The translations under genes and the position numbers were made by a program. The notes beneath the pieces are model-generated. The model made no database searches and was not told the DNA's origin. It was given only the letters and a program-made list of their open reading frames with translations. 64,000 nucleotides of DNA, taken from IMG/VR virus record IMGVR_UViG_3300037067_027616, positions 352,001 through 416,000 of that record. One strand, 5' to 3'. This DNA comes from a virus. Lineage: Duplodnaviria; Caudoviricetes. Below are positions 58,255 to 63,672 of this stretch, one piece after another. The number at the start of each line of letters is the position of its first letter. The stretch's first letter is position 1.

Positions 58255-59478
58255 ATGGCCAAAAAGGATTTAACGAAGAAACTCAGGTTGGTACGTTCAG
58301 GACAGGTTGGTGCAGGAGCCACGGCCTCCGCTGATGCCGAACAAAATGTGGATCAATACGGTTTGTCGATGCAGGAGGGTATCACCCGCCTCGAGGACGA
58401 GAACCGTAAGTTGCGCACGGAGCTTAAAACGGCACAACGCGACTCGACGGTGTTCAAGATGCTTGCGGCGGTCATCGAGCAACAACCGCCGTTCTCCACG
58501 TTCACGCCATACAGTTCCATCATAGATCGTAAAACACGCATTACCGAATCGGCCATGCTTGTGTTCTCCGACAGCCATGCCGACCAGGAGATAATCGCCA
58601 ACCGCGTCAGGGGCCTAGAGGAGTACGGGTTCGATATTGCTTGTCAGCGTGCGGAAAGAATAGTAGACACGACGATAAGTCACCTCATCGACAACATGAA
58701 GAACTACAGGTTTGAAACGCTTTACATTGCAGGTCTCGGTGATTACGTGAACGGCGAGATACACGGGGCCTCCGAACACAGCAAATGGCACAACGCCTTG
58801 AAGAATTCCATGGGAATGGGCGAACTGTTTGCCATGATGATAACCGATCTTTCAAGGTACTTCAAAAAGATTGTCGTGTGCAGCGTGTCCGGCAACCACG
58901 GTCGCAGATCAGCCAAGAAGGACTACCGAGGTGCACACGACAATTGGGATTACCTTGTAATTTCCCATGCCGCCACAAGGTTGAAGGGACTCATCGAGCA
59001 AGGCCGGGTGGAGATAGTTGCTCCGGACGCGTGGTCGATGATTGTGAATATATACGGATGGAATTTTGTTCTCAATCACGGTGACGACATCAGATCTTGG
59101 AATAGTCTCCCATGGTATGGGATCGAGAGGAAGACCCGCCGGCTCAATGCCATCGGGACTGTGACCGGGCAGATGCCAAATTATTATCTGTTTGGTCATT
59201 TTCATAATATGGGTTCACAACAGCATACGACGGGGGAGACGATCGTAAATGGAAATTGGTGTGCCACAGACGAATATGCTTTGGAAAGTCTCGGGGCCTA
59301 TTCGGAGCCTTATCAATGGCTCATGGGAATTCACCCCACCTATGGTCTTACATGGCGCCTTCCAATAAAACTCAGGAAGAAGGATTGGCGTGAGTCTCTC
59401 GGTAAGGCTTCCAGGTACACTATTACACAACTTGAGGGTAATTCGTTGGTGGGGGTTGACAAAGTTACTGAAGCGTAG
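58255..59478 (+). CDS. Calcineurin-like metallophosphoesterase with N-terminal coiled coil
   Basis: SDSH, LGD, GNHGR, HGD, GHFH motifs. Confidence 0.9.
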   Translation: MAKKDLTKKLRLVRSGQVGAGATASADAEQNVDQYGLSMQEGITRLEDENRKLRTELKTAQRDSTVFKMLAAVIEQQPPFSTFTPYSSIIDRKTRITESAMLVFSDSHADQEIIANRVRGLEEYGFDIACQRAERIVDTTISHLIDNMKNYRFETLYIAGLGDYVNGEIHGASEHSKWHNALKNSMGMGELFAMMITDLSRYFKKIVVCSVSGNHGRRSAKKDYRGAHDNWDYLVISHAATRLKGLIEQGRVEIVAPDAWSMIVNIYGWNFVLNHGDDIRSWNSLPWYGIERKTRRLNAIGTVTGQMPNYYLFGHFHNMGSQQHTTGETIVNGNWCATDEYALESLGAYSEPYQWLMGIHPTYGLTWRLPIKLRKKDWRESLGKASRYTITQLEGNSLVGVDKVTEA

Positions 59479-59484
59479 TATATT
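59456..59484 (+). promoter_or_regulatory. Near-consensus sigma70 promoter driving the ncRNA array
   Basis: TTGACA(59456-61)-17 nt-TATATT(59479-84); predicted +1 near 59491, at the start of unit 1. Confidence 0.85.
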
Positions 59485-59490
59485 ATGTCC

Positions 59491-59657
59491 GTTGTGGTTC
59501 TTTCTCATTCCGGTCAGCACTCCATGCGAGGGCGTACATGTATAGCTCAATTGGATAGAGCGCAAGACTATTAATCTTGAGGTTGCGGGATCATATCCTG
59601 CTACAAATGTTACACACGCACTAGCGACTTGTGCTGATTGGAATGAGGAAGAACAAC
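59491..59657 (+). ncRNA. Array unit 1: structured RNA with 24-bp closing stem, conserved core and tRNA-like domain (anticodon-position AUU)
   Basis: 59497-59520 pairs with 59631-59654 (3 G-U); core TCCAT..GGCGTACA / ACGCA..GACTT; D arm GCTC/GAGC, anticodon arm CAAGA-CTATTAA-TCTTG, T arm GCGGG-ATCATAT-CCTGC. Confidence 0.8.
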
Positions 59658-59660
59658 TCT

Positions 59661-59797
59661 TTGAAAGTAAGTCTGCTCTCCACACCGGGGGCCTACATTC
59701 GATGGATAGTCGATGCTACGTACCGGGTTCTCCATAAGCCGTAAGTGCTTATGGTGGCTCGGTAAAGCAACCGGAACTCGAGCAGGTTTACCTTCAA
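59661..59797 (+). ncRNA. Array unit 2: structured RNA with divergent core and two-hairpin cargo
   Basis: TTGAAAGTAAGTCTGCTC pairs with GAGCAGGTTTACCTTCAA; core TCCAC..GGCCTACA / AAGCA..AACTC; hairpin CCATAAGC-CGTAAGT-GCTTATGG. Confidence 0.7.
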
Positions 59798-59798
59798 T

Positions 59799-59962
59799 TT
59801 GCTCTTTCACATTCTGGCCAGCACTCCATGTTGGGGCGTACATTGCGATTAGCTCAATGGTAGAGCGCATTCCTTAAGAGAATGATGTCGCGGGCTCGAA
59901 ACCCGTATTGCAAACCAAAACACGCATTAACGACTTGTGCCGGCTAGAATGAGGAAGAGCGA
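59799..59962 (+). ncRNA. Array unit 3: structured RNA with closing stem, conserved core and complete embedded tRNA
   Basis: 59801-59824 pairs with 59937-59960, with compensatory changes relative to unit 1; core TCCAT..GGCGTACA / ACGCA..GACTT. Confidence 0.8.
59843..59917 (+). tRNA. Atypical tRNA/tRNA mimic, anticodon UAA, embedded in unit 3
   Basis: Acceptor TTGCGAT/ATTGCAA + A + CCA; D arm GCTC-AATGGTA-GAGC; anticodon arm CATTC-CTTAAGA-GAATG; short variable loop; T arm GCGGG-CTCGAAA-CCCGT. Confidence 0.65.
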
Positions 59963-59965
59963 TGC

Positions 59966-60072
59966 TCTTTGACACAGACTCTCGTCCTCTATGCTCAGGG
60001 CGTACATTCGATACTACCATTAAGGTTTTGAATTAACGCACGAGTGACTTGAACGGGAGCCTGTGACAAAGA
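59966..60072 (+). ncRNA. Array unit 4: minimal structured RNA (core + small hairpin)
   Basis: TCTTTG-A-CACAGACTCTCGT pairs with ACGGGAGCCTGTG-A-CAAAGA; core TCTAT..GGCGTACA / ACGCA..GACTT; apical ACC-ATTAA-GGT. Confidence 0.75.
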
Positions 60073-60077
60073 CCATA

Positions 60078-60112
60078 GAAGCCGGGGACTTCAAGTTCTC
60101 GGTTTTTTCTTT
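60078..60112 (+). terminator. Rho-independent terminator closing the ncRNA array
   Basis: GCCGGGGACT-TCA-AGTTCTCGGT followed by TTTTTCTTT. Confidence 0.85.
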
Positions 60113-60158
60113 GTCCCTGTTGTTTAAAAGTGTCTATTAATGTGTGTGAAAATTTATC

Positions 60159-60187
60159 GTTACAAATGAGGTTTCAAAAAGTATATT
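60159..60187 (+). promoter_or_regulatory. Sigma70-type promoter for the Ubl-SPFH-TROVE operon
   Basis: GTTACA-17 nt-TATATT, then GGAGG RBS and ATG 60218. Confidence 0.6.
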
Positions 60188-60217
60188 CGATAGGTCGCCA
60201 ATAAAAAGGAGGGTGAG

Positions 60218-60472
60218 ATGGTACACGTTAAGTATGAGGGTCGTTCCGAGGACATCGAGTTTGACGCATTGTTCGCGCAGGATCGCCTGGCTTCTATAGG
60301 TATCCCTGCGGGTGTGGTGCCTACGCCGCAGTCGGTGACGCAACAGCAGATCAAGGTCGCCTTGGCGCAGCATTTCGATCGTGGTTTGACCGAGTTCGAT
60401 GAGATGTATGTCGAGGTCAACCCGAATGGAAACATCACGGTGCGTCCGGAGGCAGTGTTCGGTACCCGGTAA
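60218..60472 (+). CDS. Ubiquitin-like (beta-grasp) small protein ending …RPEAVFG-TR
   Basis: 84 aa; beta-beta-alpha-beta-beta pattern ('VHVKYEGRSEDI…QQQIKVALAQHF…YVEVNPNGNITVRPEAVFG'); strong RBS. Confidence 0.65.
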   Translation: MVHVKYEGRSEDIEFDALFAQDRLASIGIPAGVVPTPQSVTQQQIKVALAQHFDRGLTEFDEMYVEVNPNGNITVRPEAVFGTR

Positions 60473-60476
60473 TAAC

Positions 60477-60519
60477 AGGTCACAAGGTGAGGGGGTAACA
60501 AACATAACCCTTGTGACCT
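60477..60519 (+). other. Intergenic hairpin after Ubl gene
   Basis: AGGTCACAAGG / CCTTGTGACCT perfect 11-bp inverted repeat. Confidence 0.55.
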
Positions 60520-60548
60520 CTTGTCATAGTCTTGAACAAGGAGTCTGT

Positions 60549-60767
60549 ATGGTTCTTCTGTGGGACGTCATCGAGATAATTTTGGTGCTTGCTATTTTGA
60601 TGTTCATGGTTACCCAGGTATTCCTCCCGATTATACGGGGTACTCCGATGTACCCTTTTTTCAAGTCGAAGGAGCCAAAATTGTCAAAAGATTTGAAGGA
60701 GGCCCGGCAGAAGGTTGTTGAAAGTAACTTGAAAAAAGAGGTTGATGACACTAAGAACATTAAGTAG
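60549..60767 (+). CDS. Small single-pass membrane protein (SPFH partner)
   Basis: aaggag RBS, ATG 60549; hydrophobic 'VIEIILVLAILMFMVTQVFLPII' then charged tail. Confidence 0.65.
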   Translation: MVLLWDVIEIILVLAILMFMVTQVFLPIIRGTPMYPFFKSKEPKLSKDLKEARQKVVESNLKKEVDDTKNIK

Positions 60768-60813
60768 TTCCCGGTAACAGTCAAATAACATACAAATCAA
60801 AAAGGAGATTCAG

Positions 60814-62010
60814 ATGCAGACGAGAAATGATCAGTTGTCCGCCCGTATCCCGCTTTCAGTCAACCGTAGCCTGCACCTTTTCGTGTGGGTCGGGATCTTC
60901 TTCCTTTTTATCCTGGCTTCCTTCAACCTTTGGGAGATGCTTGATTCCGACAAAATCATGGTGATCCAAAGCCCGTTCAAGGGGACATTGAATTGGCACA
61001 CCAACGCAGGCATCAAGTGGCAAGGAATCGGAAAGGTATCAAAGTACCAAAAAAGGGACATCTACGAGTTTGAGATACCCGTGCGTTTCAACGATGGCGG
61101 ACACGGGACCATCGTGGGATCCATACAGTATGACATGCCCATTGATGCAGAGAATTTGACAGAGTTGCACACGAAATTTGGCAGCCAGAAGGCGGTGGAG
61201 TCGGCCCTCATTCAGACGGTGACCAACAAGGCGATTTACATGACGGGCCCCCTTATGTCATCTAAAGAGTCCTATGCGGAACGCAGGAATTATCTCATAC
61301 GGTACGTAGAGGATCAAATCGAGAACGGCGTGTACAAGACCGTAAGCCGTGAGCAGAAGGTCATAGATCAGATGACCGGGCAGGAGAAAACGGCCACCGT
61401 TGTCGAGATCGTGTTGAAGGATGGTATTCCGGAAAGGCAGGAGAATGCCGTGTTGCAGGAGTTCGGGATACGGACATTCAACTTCTCCATCTTGAAGTTG
61501 CCGTATGACGATGCGGTGGAAGGCCAGATTAAGGCCCAGCAACAGTTGGCGATGGACGTCCAAACCAGCATAGCCGAAGCCAAGAAAGCAGAGCAACGTG
61601 CCATCACGGTCGCCAAGAACGGCGAGGCGGAAGCCATGAAGGCAAAATGGGAGCAGGAAGTGGTTAAAGCAAAGGCCGTGACCCTTGCAGAGCAGAGTAA
61701 GGAAGTGGCAAAGCTCGAAAGGGACGCCTCTGAGTTCACTAAACAGAAGAACATCCTTGATGGAGAGGGAGAGGCCGCCAAGAAACGCCTTGTAATGCAG
61801 GCCGATGGCGCCCTTACGCAGAAGCTTGAAGCATGGGTGCAGGCGCAACAGTACTACGCCGCCGCCCTGCAGAATTTCAAAGGTAACCTCGTTCCAAGTG
61901 TCATCATGGGGGAATCCGGAAAAGGTTCGAGTAGCATGGATCTCATAAACCTTCTTACGGCGAAGACAGCGAAGGATCTTGCGTTGGACATGGAGATGAA
62001 GGGAAATTAA
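60814..62010 (+). CDS. SPFH/band-7 (prohibitin/flotillin-like) membrane protein
   Basis: N-terminal TM helix, 'VIQSP..G', 'VRFNDGG', long Ala/Glu/Lys coiled coil, 'VPSVIMG'. Confidence 0.85.
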   Translation: MQTRNDQLSARIPLSVNRSLHLFVWVGIFFLFILASFNLWEMLDSDKIMVIQSPFKGTLNWHTNAGIKWQGIGKVSKYQKRDIYEFEIPVRFNDGGHGTIVGSIQYDMPIDAENLTELHTKFGSQKAVESALIQTVTNKAIYMTGPLMSSKESYAERRNYLIRYVEDQIENGVYKTVSREQKVIDQMTGQEKTATVVEIVLKDGIPERQENAVLQEFGIRTFNFSILKLPYDDAVEGQIKAQQQLAMDVQTSIAEAKKAEQRAITVAKNGEAEAMKAKWEQEVVKAKAVTLAEQSKEVAKLERDASEFTKQKNILDGEGEAAKKRLVMQADGALTQKLEAWVQAQQYYAAALQNFKGNLVPSVIMGESGKGSSSMDLINLLTAKTAKDLALDMEMKGN

Positions 62011-62065: not shown

Positions 62066-62082
62066 ATAAAATGGAGGAACAG

Positions 62083-63672
62083 ATGAACAGGCGTGTTGCA
62101 GCTCCCGCACCTCAGGCAGTGGAATCCCAGGACAAGCGCCTTGCGCTTCTCAACGCTTTCATGACGTGTCCGCACAGGGACACCGATCGCATCAAGCAGA
62201 TCCATGACGAGGTGAGGAAGCAGGATCCTGTTTTCTACGCGCACCTTGCTTGTTGGTACGACCGTACCGGGGACATAAGGGATCACAAGGAAGTTTTCGC
62301 TTCCATGTTGACCGTTGACCCCTTCATGGACAACCGTGAGGTCGGCCTCGCCTTGTTCAGGGACATGCCCATTTTCCTCAAGAAGAGGGTCGTGGGATTC
62401 ATCAAGGGCAAGAAGGTGAAGATCCGCACCAAGACCGGTGAGAAGATGACCGTCGAAAAGGGCAAGGCGAAGGGGAAGGTCATCGAGAAGGTCCGGGTCG
62501 AAGAGCGCAAGGTCGGACTCGATGCGAACGTGCCGCACGGACTCAAGACCGAGGTGAAGAACTATCTCCGGTGGCTCGAATCCAATGACAAGCGGTGGGA
62601 CGAGGCGGCCATACGTTCGTTCTGGGATCTCAAGTATCTGTACAAGTCCGGTGGACTGCAGATCAAGCCGAGTCCCAGGGCGCAGGAGATCCTGTTCGAG
62701 GGTAAGGTACCCGAGGGAAGCAAGCTGAACGTCCTTGAGGAGTTCCGCAAGGCCAAGACCCCCGAGGAGGCTGCCAAGCTCATCGTCGAGAACAAGATCC
62801 CGTACACGGTGGCGGTCGGACTCACGGACAAGGTAACGCCAAGCATACTCGTCGCCCTTATCGAGCGGATGTCACCGCAGGAACTTTTGAACAACATCGC
62901 CTCCCTTGAGGAGAAGGGGGCCATGGCTGTTCCGGAGGTCAAGGCCATCATCGACAAGAAGTTGGTGAAGGCCAAGACGGCCAAGGGTGTATCCGCGCTC
63001 AAGTCAAAGACGGCGAAGGCCACGGGGAGGATCAAGGACGAGTCGACCGCGAAGAAGCTGGACGAAATCGCCGACACCCAGATCAAGAGCAAGGGTGTCA
63101 TCAGCCTTTCCACGGCTATTCTTATCGACCGCTCCGGGAGTATGACGGAGGCCATCGAGGTGGGTAAGAGGCTGGCTACGGTTGTTTCCGGAGCCACCGT
63201 TGCCAACCTTCAGGTTGTGGCGTTTGATTCCTCGGCCGCAGAAGTCGTATCCAAGGGCAAGACGTTGAGTGATTGGGAAGATGCGTTCAAGGGCATCAAC
63301 CCTGGCGGACAGACGTCCATCGGGTCGGCTTTGTACTACCTTCTGCGCAAGAAGGTGGTGGTCGAGCAGATCGTGGTCGTGACTGACGAGGGGGAGAACG
63401 CGCTTCCGTGGTTCACCGATATATACGAGAAGTATTGCACGGAGATGAAGGTGAAGCCCCATGTCGTGGTCATGCACGTGGGCGGAGCCGACAAGACGTT
63501 CTCTACGAACCTCACCCGGGCAAAAATCGAATTTGATACGTACACCCCGGAGGGGAGTGACTACTACGGGATGCCTGGTATCATACAGCTTTTGGCTCGT
63601 AAGTCGAAGCTCGACCTCGTCTACGAAATCATGGACGAACCCCTCCGCAAGAGGGTGCCGTTCAAGGGGTAA
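62083..63672 (+). CDS. Ro60/TROVE-like helical RNA-binding domain + vWA (MIDAS) protein
   Basis: Start reassigned to ATG 62083 (GGAGGA RBS). 'DPVFYAHLACWY…IRD' and 'LIERMSPQELLNNIASL' match TROVE-type helical motifs; vWA DRSGSM, VVAFD, GGQTS, VVTDEGEN; Lys-rich. Confidence 0.75.
   Translation: MNRRVAAPAPQAVESQDKRLALLNAFMTCPHRDTDRIKQIHDEVRKQDPVFYAHLACWYDRTGDIRDHKEVFASMLTVDPFMDNREVGLALFRDMPIFLKKRVVGFIKGKKVKIRTKTGEKMTVEKGKAKGKVIEKVRVEERKVGLDANVPHGLKTEVKNYLRWLESNDKRWDEAAIRSFWDLKYLYKSGGLQIKPSPRAQEILFEGKVPEGSKLNVLEEFRKAKTPEEAAKLIVENKIPYTVAVGLTDKVTPSILVALIERMSPQELLNNIASLEEKGAMAVPEVKAIIDKKLVKAKTAKGVSALKSKTAKATGRIKDESTAKKLDEIADTQIKSKGVISLSTAILIDRSGSMTEAIEVGKRLATVVSGATVANLQVVAFDSSAAEVVSKGKTLSDWEDAFKGINPGGQTSIGSALYYLLRKKVVVEQIVVVTDEGENALPWFTDIYEKYCTEMKVKPHVVVMHVGGADKTFSTNLTRAKIEFDTYTPEGSDYYGMPGIIQLLARKSKLDLVYEIMDEPLRKRVPFKG

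What the first reader, a model, noticed from the sequence alone, without database searches (positions are those of the whole stretch)
59843..59917. Complete CCA-ending tRNA(UAA) caged inside a larger RNA, with non-Leu architecture
Seen: 75-nt cloverleaf with 7-bp acceptor stem, discriminator A and encoded CCA. The anticodon is UAA (Leu), yet the variable loop is short, whereas bacterial Leu tRNAs have a long variable arm. The T loop is CUCGAAA rather than UUCRANY. Both ends are enclosed by the conserved core and a 24-bp stem. Inference: either a latent tRNA released on demand by RNase P/3' trimming, or a non-chargeable decoy for anticodon nucleases.
Basis: partly seen in the sequence, partly recalled or inferred. 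Interest (0 to 1): 0.75.

Follow-up and report, generated by a model that had tools for sequence, protein, structure and literature searches.

The report
tRNA mimic inside phage Y RNA
The "caged tRNA" is real, but it is most likely the tRNA-shaped working end of a Y-RNA-like non-coding RNA, one of four in a row that a giant phage encodes just upstream of its own very divergent Ro60 protein, rather than a tRNA used for translation.

Summary
Window 59843-59917 is a 75-nt cloverleaf (ARAGORN Leu-UAA; Rfam tRNA 59.2 bits) with a short variable loop, T loop CUCGAAA and encoded ACCA. It is enclosed by a conserved core and a 23-24-bp stem.

It is not a free-standing tRNA gene. It is module 3 of four stem-enclosed modules (59494-60076) lying between one strong promoter and one terminator. 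The phage's 47 ordinary tRNAs lie about 200 kb away and include a normal long-arm Leu-UAA.

The same shell (GCNUACAU ... A-run-N'GCA ... RACUYG plus an outer stem) recurs in arrays of 2-6 modules in related giant-phage contigs. It carries natural-order tRNA cloverleaves, circularly permuted tRNA-like domains or unrelated hairpins. These arrays always lie a few kb from a homologue of the 533-aa protein at 62071-63672. That protein's predicted structure matches Ro60 over its full length (Z 21).

Orthologous modules keep the tRNA body but change the anticodon (UAA here, AAC in L009).

Best reading (about 0.7): a new Y-RNA variant with a full tRNA mimic as its effector module. Release as a tRNA, or a decoy role, is not excluded.

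The parts
59456..59484 (+). Sigma-70-type promoter (TTGACA, 17 nt, TATATT) of the non-coding array
   Evidence: 11 of 12 consensus matches. The first module's stem starts about 10 nt downstream. L009 has an equivalent TTGACA box.
59494..59657 (+). Module 1: outer stem plus conserved core enclosing a degenerate tRNA-like domain (59535-59610; anticodon loop CUAUUAA, bulged acceptor stem, no CCA, T loop AUCAUAU)
   Evidence: Rfam tRNA 52 bits; z -6.8.
59661..59797 (+). Module 2: stem-enclosed module with a degenerate core (GGCCUACAU) and non-tRNA cargo
59800..59961 (+). Module 3: the shell that cages the finding. It has an outer 23-24-bp stem (59800-59823 / 59938-59961), a 5' core ending GGGGCGUACA (to 59842) and a 3' core AAACACGCAUUAACGACUUG (59918-59937).
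   Evidence: Covariation of the inner helix GCN/N'GC: U-A 8, G-C 6, A-U 2.
59843..59917 (+). The finding itself: a 75-nt natural-order tRNA cloverleaf with anticodon UAA, short variable loop, C54, discriminator A and encoded CCA
   Evidence: Identical to the L009 orthologue except for 4 positions in the anticodon loop and 1 in the variable loop.
59962..60076 (+). Module 4: the same core (GGGCGUACAU ... ACGCACGAGUGACUUG) and a long stem, with a short non-tRNA hairpin as cargo
60077..60112 (+). Intrinsic terminator (14-pair hairpin plus T run) ending the array
62071..63672 (+). Divergent Ro60 (HEAT-repeat ring plus vWA) protein, 533 aa (the ORF is open from 62014). It is the inferred protein partner of the RNAs.
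   Evidence: AF2 with a 28-sequence alignment: pLDDT 83, pTM 0.77. The 13 best Foldseek matches in the PDB are all Ro60/TROVE, E 1e-10 to 1e-8. VIA-align gives Z 21.1 over 435-442 residues. PF25045 vWA_Ro60 is weakly hit by 10 of 28 homologues. phrog_850 'RNA-binding protein'.
60218..62010 (+). Intervening genes: 84-aa and 122-aa ORFs and a 398-aa SPFH/Band-7 protein. Their link to the RNA is not established.
   Evidence: The SPFH gene is absent from the syntenic locus of P0011.
58255..59478 (+). Upstream 407-aa metallophosphoesterase-type exonuclease (phrog_284), syntenic with the array in relatives

Best explanation
The cloverleaf is the effector (tRNA-mimic) domain of a Y-RNA-like non-coding RNA. 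One promoter drives a roughly 620-nt transcript of four modules. Each module has a long stem formed by its own 5' and 3' ends. Inside that lies a conserved internal loop and short helices: 5' ...GCNUACAU, and 3' A-run-N'GCA...RACUYG. I infer this to be the docking site for the phage's own Ro60-like ring protein, encoded 2 kb downstream. Each module also carries a variable cargo domain. In module 3 the cargo is a complete natural-order tRNA fold. It presents a tRNA-shaped surface (elbow, anticodon loop, single-stranded ACCA in an asymmetric internal loop) to a tRNA-recognising partner. By analogy with Deinococcus, Salmonella and Thermus phage phiLo, that partner could be a host exoribonuclease such as PNPase, or tRNA-processing or repair enzymes. 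The module thereby tethers the partner to Ro60 or titrates it. It does not decode. SHOWN: the cloverleaf and its cage; the four-module unit with promoter and terminator; conservation and covariation of the shell; interchangeable cargo; linkage to a protein with a Ro60 fold; non-conservation of the anticodon. INFERRED: physical binding of the shell to the Ro60-like protein; the identity of the partner of the tRNA-like domain; that the RNA stays uncleaved.
For: (1) Architecture. All four modules fold independently within the full transcript (z -8.6), between a promoter and a terminator.

(2) Family. The same shell occurs in arrays of 2-6 modules in all 14 distinct related loci whose protein is at least 43% identical. 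There are 47 shell-positive modules within 3.5 kb upstream of the Ro60-like gene against 6 elsewhere in the 36 loci, about a 19-fold difference in density.

(3) Converse test. A loose pattern for 'core motif + T arm' was scanned across IMG/VR. The hits that also carry the 3' shell, in loci with enough flanking sequence to judge, lie in contigs with a Ro60-like gene. This includes a new complete 112.9-kb phage, where the gene is 3.9 kb downstream.

(4) The neighbouring protein has the full-length Ro60 fold. It has an invariant DxSxS MIDAS motif and weak vWA_Ro60 hits.

(5) Precedent. Y RNAs are encoded next to Ro60 in more than 250 bacteria and phages and contain tRNA-like domains (PMC4201824). 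Phage phiLo Ro60 binds two Y-like RNAs encoded upstream of its gene and also binds host PNPase (PMC12135203).

(6) Cargo is interchangeable within one shell type: natural-order tRNA, permuted T-arm/acceptor-hairpin/D-arm/anticodon-arm, or plain hairpins.

(7) It is not a decoder. Compared with L009, 4 of the 5 differences fall in the 7-nt anticodon loop and none in 63 nt of body, while the shell differs at 15 of 87 positions. Anticodons across caged tRNAs are UAA, AAC, AUU, UCG, GCA, UAU, GAU, UUG, UCA, UAG, CCA and CAU. The phage has a separate full tRNA set including Leu-UAA.

(8) The Rfam YrlA consensus has AaAcUuG immediately 5' of the closing stem's 3' strand. This is the same place as RACUYG in this shell.
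Against: The canonical bacterial Ro60-binding motif GNCGAA(N)G / CGAA is absent from the 5' strand. The Rfam YrlA model does not score these RNAs. The Ro60 assignment rests on a predicted structure and weak sequence signals: Pfam TROVE finds nothing in the genome, and the profile against PDB sequences gives TROVE only at E 0.15. Two to three genes (small ORFs and SPFH) lie between the array and the Ro60-like gene, so another neighbour could be the true partner. The encoded N-CCA recurs in about 13 of 22 natural-order modules, and the anticodon-loop frame stays tRNA-like. A pure scaffold would not obviously need either feature.
Confidence: 0.7

Rival explanations
1. Caged pre-tRNA. The shell is a structured leader and trailer. 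RNase P cuts at the 5' end and a 3' nuclease cuts after CCA, either constitutively or when triggered. This releases a functional, chargeable tRNA that supplements translation.
For: The cloverleaf is complete, with nearly all tertiary pairs, a 7-bp acceptor stem and ACCA lying single-stranded in a 3x8 internal loop. Rfam scores it 59.2 bits, against 69 for two ordinary phage tRNAs. N-CCA recurs in relatives. M. smegmatis YrlA is cut by RNase P and receives CCA in vivo (PMC4201824).
Against: The anticodon changes between orthologues with an identical body (UAA/AAC; UAA/AUU), which would cause miscoding. A34 anticodons (AUU, AAC, AAU) are atypical for bacteria. The variable loop is short for a Leu anticodon, and position 54 is C. 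The acceptor stem is AU-rich and starts U1-A72, unlike the phage's 47 tRNAs. The phage already has Leu-UAA. The same shell holds permuted and non-tRNA cargo that cannot yield a tRNA. All ordinary tRNA genes of this phage encode CCA, so the CCA may simply be inherited. Orthologous modules have lost it (L015 5321 against L016 5320).
Confidence: 0.12
2. Decoy or sponge for host tRNA-targeting defences (anticodon nucleases, or toxins that modify the CCA end). The fast-changing anticodon loops would track host nucleases. Ro60 would be at most an accessory that protects or recycles the decoy.
For: The anticodon triplet is the hot spot of change (4 of 7 loop positions against 1 of 68 others). Meanwhile the loop frame stays tRNA-like: pyrimidine 32 in 17/18, U33 in 13/18, purine 37 in 18/18, A38 in 15/18. 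Arrays carry several different anticodons. CCA is often kept.
Against: At this divergence (proteins 80% identical) an unconstrained triplet would also look saturated, so diversifying selection is not demonstrated. Many modules have non-tRNA or permuted cargo. No nuclease target set is apparent among the anticodons. The conserved linkage is to Ro60, not to any known counter-defence gene.
Confidence: 0.12
3. The conserved shell is a self-cleaving ribozyme or a mobile or repeat element unrelated to Ro60, and its proximity to the Ro60-like gene is incidental synteny.
For: About 20 conserved single-stranded nucleotides lie in internal loops. Every module is preceded by CUUUGA(A/C)A, which could be a processing site.
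Against: No Rfam ribozyme or other family is hit even at E<=10. Linkage to the Ro60-like gene holds down to about 26-30% protein identity and across different gene neighbourhoods. There is only one locus per genome.
Confidence: 0.04

Closest known systems
YrlA-type bacterial and phage Y RNAs (Rfam RF02553; Chen et al. 2014, PMC4201824; Wang et al. 2018, bioRxiv 10.1101/312249)
   Same: Both are encoded beside a Ro60 gene, often as tandem paralogues. Both have a long stem formed by the 5' and 3' ends, an internal loop and a second helix, and a tRNA-like effector domain with canonical D and T arms. Both have ACUUG-type nucleotides on the 3' strand next to the closing stem. Sister modules in relatives (L013 5395, L016 5469, L019 5164/5352) have the YrlA order T arm, acceptor hairpin, D arm.
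   Different: Here the tRNA domain is in natural order with an open 7-bp acceptor stem, a full 5-bp/7-nt anticodon arm and an encoded ACCA. [quoted passage not shown] The GNCGAA motif is absent and is replaced by GCNUACAU. The Rfam model gives no hit. Arrays reach 4-6 modules with mixed cargo.
Deinococcus radiodurans Yrn1 (Y RNA of the Rsr-PNPase RYPER complex)
   Same: The tRNA-like part is in the natural 5'-to-3' order, with an anticodon-arm-like hairpin between the D-like and T arms. The position of the acceptor stem continues into the Ro60-binding stem (PMC4201824).
   Different: Yrn1 lacks a full D arm and a variable region, and has a 6-nt 'anticodon loop'. The element here is a near-perfect cloverleaf with CCA.
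Thermus phage phiLo Ro60 with Yrl1/Yrl2 (PMC12135203; PDB 9KOP, 9L5Y)
   Same: A phage-encoded Ro60 with Y-like RNAs encoded just upstream of its gene. The structure is among the top fold matches of the window's protein.
   Different: Yrl1/2 are simple stem-bulge-stem RNAs with a CGAA motif and no tRNA domain. The proteins share only about 14-15% identity.
Ordinary phage tRNA genes / tRNA-Leu(UAA)
   Same: Cloverleaf, tertiary pairs, encoded CCA, and a Rfam tRNA score well above threshold.
   Different: It has a class I body with a Leu anticodon, C54 and an AU-rich acceptor stem. It is buried in a conserved 160-nt hairpin shell. Its anticodon is not conserved in orthologues. It lies 200 kb from the phage's tRNA cluster and on the other strand.

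Membership tests
Y RNA / YrlA | Encoded adjacent to a Ro60 (TROVE + vWA) gene | tested here: met
   A Ro60-fold protein starts 2 kb downstream on the same strand. The linkage is conserved in related loci and holds in the converse search.
Y RNA / YrlA | 5' and 3' ends pair into a long stem that carries an internal loop or bulged helix (the Ro60 site) | tested here: met
   MFE folds. The inner helix covaries. Flank duplexes of -10 to -39 kcal/mol in relatives.
Y RNA / YrlA | Conserved 5'-strand motif GNCGAA(N)G / CGAA | tested here: not met
   The 5' strand reads ...CACUCCAUGUUGGGGCGUACAU. The family consensus is (C/U)U(C/U)..AC ... GCNUACAU.
Y RNA / YrlA | tRNA-like domain with conserved D and T arms | tested here: met
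   Rfam tRNA 59.2 and 52 bits. D, anticodon and T stems are supported by covariation.
Y RNA / YrlA | Permuted order (T arm, closed acceptor hairpin, D arm) with no free CCA | tested here: not met
   Both tRNA-like modules in the window are in natural order, and module 3 encodes ACCA. Permuted modules exist in the same shell in L013, L016 and L019.
Y RNA / YrlA | Scores at or above the Rfam RF02553 gathering threshold (69 bits) | tested here: not met
   No YrlA hit at E<=10 in 59000-60300. Only a 12.5-bit T-arm fragment in the genome search. None in 11 related loci.
Y RNA / YrlA | Physically bound by Ro60 | not testable with these tools
   Needs EMSA or RIP.
Elongator tRNA-Leu | Cloverleaf recognised by tRNA models | tested here: met
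Elongator tRNA-Leu | Class II long variable arm | tested here: not met
   The variable loop is 5 nt (AUGUC). The phage's own Leu-UAA is 88 nt.
Elongator tRNA-Leu | Anticodon conserved among orthologues | tested here: not met
   UAA here against AAC in L009, with an otherwise identical body. UAA against AUU in L015/L016.
Elongator tRNA-Leu | Processed to free ends and aminoacylated | not testable with these tools
Ro60 / TROVE protein (the neighbour) | HEAT-repeat ring followed by a vWA domain, full-length structural match | tested here: met
   Z 21.1, rmsd 4.3-4.5 A, 435-442 residues aligned to 1YVP, 2I91 and 9NEP. vWA-only matches stop at Z 15 over about 160 residues. Foldseek E 1e-10.
Ro60 / TROVE protein (the neighbour) | MIDAS motif DxSxS in the vWA domain | tested here: met
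   Invariant D353, S355 and S357 in 28 homologues; pattern [VI]D[RQK]SGSM.
Ro60 / TROVE protein (the neighbour) | Pfam TROVE (PF05731) sequence match | tested here: not met
   No hit in the protein or anywhere in the genome. The profile against PDB sequences gives TROVE only at E 0.15.

The most novel reading that the evidence does not exclude
The Ro60-linked shells may be cages for real, releasable tRNA bodies whose anticodon triplets are deliberately diversified. The phage would then keep a small library of CCA-ended tRNA look-alikes. These would either be liberated by RNase P when host tRNAs are attacked, or serve as sacrificial substrates for host anticodon-loop or CCA-end nucleases and toxins. 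Ro60 and a recruited exonuclease would clear the debris. This would link Ro60/Y RNA biology directly to the phage-host tRNA arms race. It would also suggest that Y-RNA tRNA-like domains arise by repeated capture of tRNA genes.
Probability: 0.15. Interest if true: 0.85.

Novelty: new variant of a known kind. Interest (0 to 1): 0.55.

Why it matters
Y RNAs with tRNA-like domains are known, but what those domains bind is still unknown. This giant-phage clade offers a natural experiment. One conserved shell carries a full tRNA (with CCA and a free-running anticodon), permuted tRNAs or unrelated hairpins, side by side in a single transcript next to a Ro60 too divergent for Pfam to recognise.

Three things follow. 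First, Ro60/Y-RNA systems are more widespread in huge phages than annotation suggests; more than 800 homologues were found. Second, the arrays contain intermediate forms between a tRNA gene and the permuted YrlA domain. Third, they supply well-defined constructs for testing what the tRNA-like module recruits.

There is also a practical point. tRNA finders will mis-annotate these elements as odd tRNA-Leu, Asn, Val or SeC genes.

Tried and rejected
- Exact-pattern scans of IMG/VR with the window's own 5' and 3' core sequences found nothing. The core is conserved only as a degenerate motif.
- blastn of the locus against GenBank phages found no match.
- The search for related loci with the single protein found no relatives. 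The alignment-based scan worked.
- Single-sequence AF2 of the 552-aa ORF was unusable, with pLDDT 45.
- Pfam TROVE and RtcB searches of the whole genome found nothing. There is therefore no rtcB-type RNA-repair context.
- The Rfam YrlA model hits in the genome are adjacent ordinary tRNAs read as T arm plus D arm, as Chen et al. warned.
- No isotype could be assigned. The caged tRNA is at most 72% identical to many different phage tRNAs.
- Two Y-RNA reviews (PMC10870794, PMC6047535) are not held.
- A PDB sequence search of the 84-aa ORF gave nothing. The ubiquitin-like idea in earlier notes was not tested further.
- A shell-only covariance model was not built, because alignments must be made from contiguous references and the cargo dominates them.
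- Complex prediction was not used because it handles protein-protein pairs only.

Full report
**Where the window lies**

The window is bases 352001-416000 of a 466.7-kb virus record that is about 98% complete. Nearly all genes run on the + strand. ARAGORN finds 47 ordinary tRNA genes in one cluster at genome 174-210 kb on the minus strand, plus a tmRNA. The only other tRNA calls are the two inside the window, at 59535-59610 and 59843-59917. These lie 200 kb from the cluster and on the other strand.

**The observation**

The 75-nt element at 59843-59917 is a good cloverleaf.
- Rfam scores it 59.2 bits, against 69 bits for two ordinary tRNAs of the same phage.
- It has a 7-bp acceptor stem, discriminator A and an encoded CCA.
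- The anticodon loop is CUUAAGA (anticodon UAA), the variable loop is 5 nt and the T loop is CUCGAAA (C54).
- The standard tertiary partners are in place.
- The phage's regular tRNA-Leu(UAA) is an 88-nt long-arm tRNA, so the mismatch between anticodon and body is real.

The enclosure is also real. An outer stem pairs 59800-59823 with 59938-59961. Inside it lie a 4x4 internal loop, a 6-bp helix, a bulge and a 4-bp helix (GCGU/ACGC). The cloverleaf follows, joined by ACA on the 5' side and by ACCAAAAC on the 3' side.

A sister element 304-306 nt upstream has an 85%-identical shell. Its tRNA-like domain is poorer: anticodon AUU, a 2-nt bulge in the acceptor stem, no CCA and T loop AUCAUAU.

**What surrounds it**

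- An 11-of-12 sigma-70 promoter lies at 59456-59484, and an intrinsic terminator at 60077-60107.
- The 622-nt RNA between them folds into four independent stem-closed modules plus the terminator hairpin, with z -8.6.
- Modules 1 and 3 carry tRNA-like cargo. Modules 2 and 4 carry the same core with unrelated hairpins.
- Upstream is a 407-aa exonuclease (phrog_284).
- Downstream are two small ORFs, an SPFH protein and a 533-aa vWA protein that matches phrog_850 'RNA-binding protein'.

**The 533-aa protein is a divergent Ro60**

Sequence-only evidence is weak.
- Pfam TROVE finds nothing in the genome.
- A 28-sequence profile puts TROVE-domain chains first among PDB sequences, but only at E 0.15.
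- PF25045 (Ro60 vWA domain) is weakly matched by 10 of 28 homologues.

Structural evidence is strong.
- With the alignment, AlphaFold2 gives a confident model (pLDDT 83, pTM 0.77).
- The 13 best Foldseek matches in the PDB are all Ro60 proteins: Xenopus, human, Deinococcus Rsr and Thermus phage phiLo. They match over the full length at E 1e-10 to 1e-8.
- VIA-align gives Z 21.1 over 435-442 residues at 4.3-4.5 A. vWA-only chains stop at Z 15 over about 160 residues.
- The MIDAS DxSxS motif is invariant.

The family is large, with more than 800 homologues. Many sit on contigs of 200-470 kb.

**Comparative evidence for the RNA**

*Closest relative.* In L009 the Ro60-like protein is 80% identical. 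The same intergenic space holds four modules with the same promoter and terminator.

*Wider family.* Arrays of 2-6 modules lie upstream of the Ro60-like gene in L010, L012-L017, L019 and more distant loci (L022, L025-L027, L030, L039); in L018 the modules lie on the opposite strand. Each module has four parts:
- an outer stem of variable sequence;
- a 5' core ending GCNUACAU;
- a cargo domain;
- an A-run followed by N'GCA and RACUYG.

The N/N' pair covaries: U-A 8, G-C 6, A-U 2.

*Enrichment.* A motif-plus-duplex scan finds 47 modules in the 3.5 kb upstream of the gene and 6 in the remaining sequence of the 36 loci, about a 19-fold difference in density. In the window's own genome the motif pair occurs only at this locus, apart from one weak hit.

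*Converse test.* A loose pattern (core motif plus T arm) was scanned over IMG/VR and returned 120 stretches. Of those with enough flanking sequence to judge, the ones that also have the 3' shell lie in contigs with a Ro60-like gene. One is a new, complete 112.9-kb phage in which the gene is 3.9 kb downstream.

**The cargo is interchangeable**

Within one shell type the cargo takes three forms:
- natural-order cloverleaves, for example L010 4961, L012 4967, L015 4992, L016 4990/5320 and L017 5212;
- circularly permuted tRNA-like domains in the order T arm, acceptor hairpin, D arm, anticodon arm (L013 5395, L016 5469, L019 5164/5352), which is the order of the T arm, acceptor hairpin and D arm in canonical YrlA;
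- non-tRNA hairpins.

About 13 of 22 natural-order modules end in N-CCA before the shell's A-run. However, all ordinary tRNA genes of this phage also encode CCA, and orthologous modules have lost it. The CCA may therefore be inherited from captured tRNA genes rather than required.

**Why it is not a decoding tRNA**

- Between the window and L009 the 75-nt element differs at five positions. Four are in the anticodon loop and one is in the variable loop. The other 63 nt are identical, while the shell differs at 15 of 87 positions. The body is under stronger constraint than the shell, and the anticodon is free: UAA here, AAC there.
- L015 and L016 likewise differ, UAA against AUU.
- Across 18 modules the loop frame stays tRNA-like (Y32, U33, R37, A38) while positions 35-36 are nearly random.
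- No isotype can be assigned from similarity to the phage's tRNAs.

**Comparison with what is known**

Y RNAs are 80-130-nt RNAs whose ends form a stem carrying the Ro60 site. Bacterial and phage YrlA RNAs add a tRNA-like domain and are encoded next to Ro60 (PMC4201824). YrlA is permuted and 'lacks a free CCA end' (bioRxiv 10.1101/312249). D. radiodurans Yrn1 has the natural order but an incomplete tRNA likeness. M. smegmatis YrlA is cut by RNase P and receives CCA. Thermus phage phiLo Ro60 binds two upstream Y-like RNAs through a CGAA motif and also engages host PNPase (PMC12135203).

The element here shares the following with that family:
- the gene context;
- the tandem paralogy;
- the stem, loop and helix shell;
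- an ACUUG-type 3' loop, which is also present in the Rfam YrlA consensus;
- a tRNA-like domain.

It fails three membership features:
- there is no GNCGAA/CGAA motif;
- there is no Rfam YrlA score;
- the tRNA is in natural order, with an open acceptor stem and CCA.

I therefore class it as a new variant of the Y-RNA kind, not as a YrlA member.

**Mechanism**

Most likely (about 0.7), the shell docks the phage Ro60. The tRNA fold then recruits or titrates a tRNA-recognising factor, as Y RNAs do in Deinococcus and Salmonella and as proposed for phiLo.

Binding, the identity of the partner and the processing state are all inferred, not shown. Release as a tRNA (about 0.12) and a decoy for tRNA-targeting defences (about 0.12) remain possible. 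A ribozyme or mobile-element reading is unlikely (about 0.04). No expression data could be obtained.

**Relation to earlier notes**

I reached the Ro60 link independently, before consulting those notes. I then tested it by structure prediction, fold search and comparative genomics. The ubiquitin-like system proposed in those notes was not tested here.

Noticed in passing
genome 195861-195937 (outside the window, minus strand): ARAGORN calls a tRNA with anticodon CUA (labelled 'Pyl'), i.e. an amber-suppressor-type tRNA, inside the phage's 47-tRNA cluster. This may point to TAG recoding late in infection.
   Followed up: no
genome 186085-186369 and 199687-199777 (outside the window): Several ordinary phage tRNAs are unusually long for their isotype (Ile-GAU 89 nt, Met-CAU 93 nt, Asn-GUU 91 nt). 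This suggests introns or extra arms.
   Followed up: no
genome 422973-423321 (just beyond the window); L039 11865-12243: The phage encodes its own tmRNA (tag AEDYSYAMAEAA). A distant relative also has a tmRNA a few kb from its Ro60-like gene (Rfam 116 bits).
   Followed up: no
L014 4136-4321: A HEARO RNA (RF02033, 90 bits; IS605-type guide-RNA family) sits immediately upstream of the Y-like module array of this relative.
   Followed up: no
window 59657-59668, 59803-59812, 59966-59975 and before most modules in L013, L016, L019: A short motif CUUUGA(A/C)A (CUUUCACA in modules 1 and 3 of the window) recurs at or just before the base of nearly every module. It could be a processing site or part of the closing stem.
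   Followed up: partly
L034 3933-4176: In distant loci the Rfam tRNA model reads 'tRNAs' with 30-60-nt insertions between the anticodon arm and the T arm. The AGCNUACAA motif lies just before the T arm. These are chains of split or permuted tRNA-like units that can be parsed either as YrlA-like RNAs or as tRNAs with giant variable regions.
   Followed up: partly
genome 132388-132521 (outside the window): This is the single additional weak match to the shell motif pair in the genome (flank duplex -17.6 kcal/mol). It is probably chance.
   Followed up: no
window 60218-60472 and downstream: Earlier notes propose that the 84-aa ORF is a ubiquitin-like protein linked to E1/JAB genes further on. A PDB sequence search of the ORF found nothing. 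The SPFH gene between it and the Ro60-like gene is absent from the syntenic locus of P0011.
   Followed up: partly
window 59843-59917 versus L009 3744-3818: A15-C48 in the window against A15-U48 in L009. The only change outside the anticodon loop falls on the Levitt-pair position.
   Followed up: no
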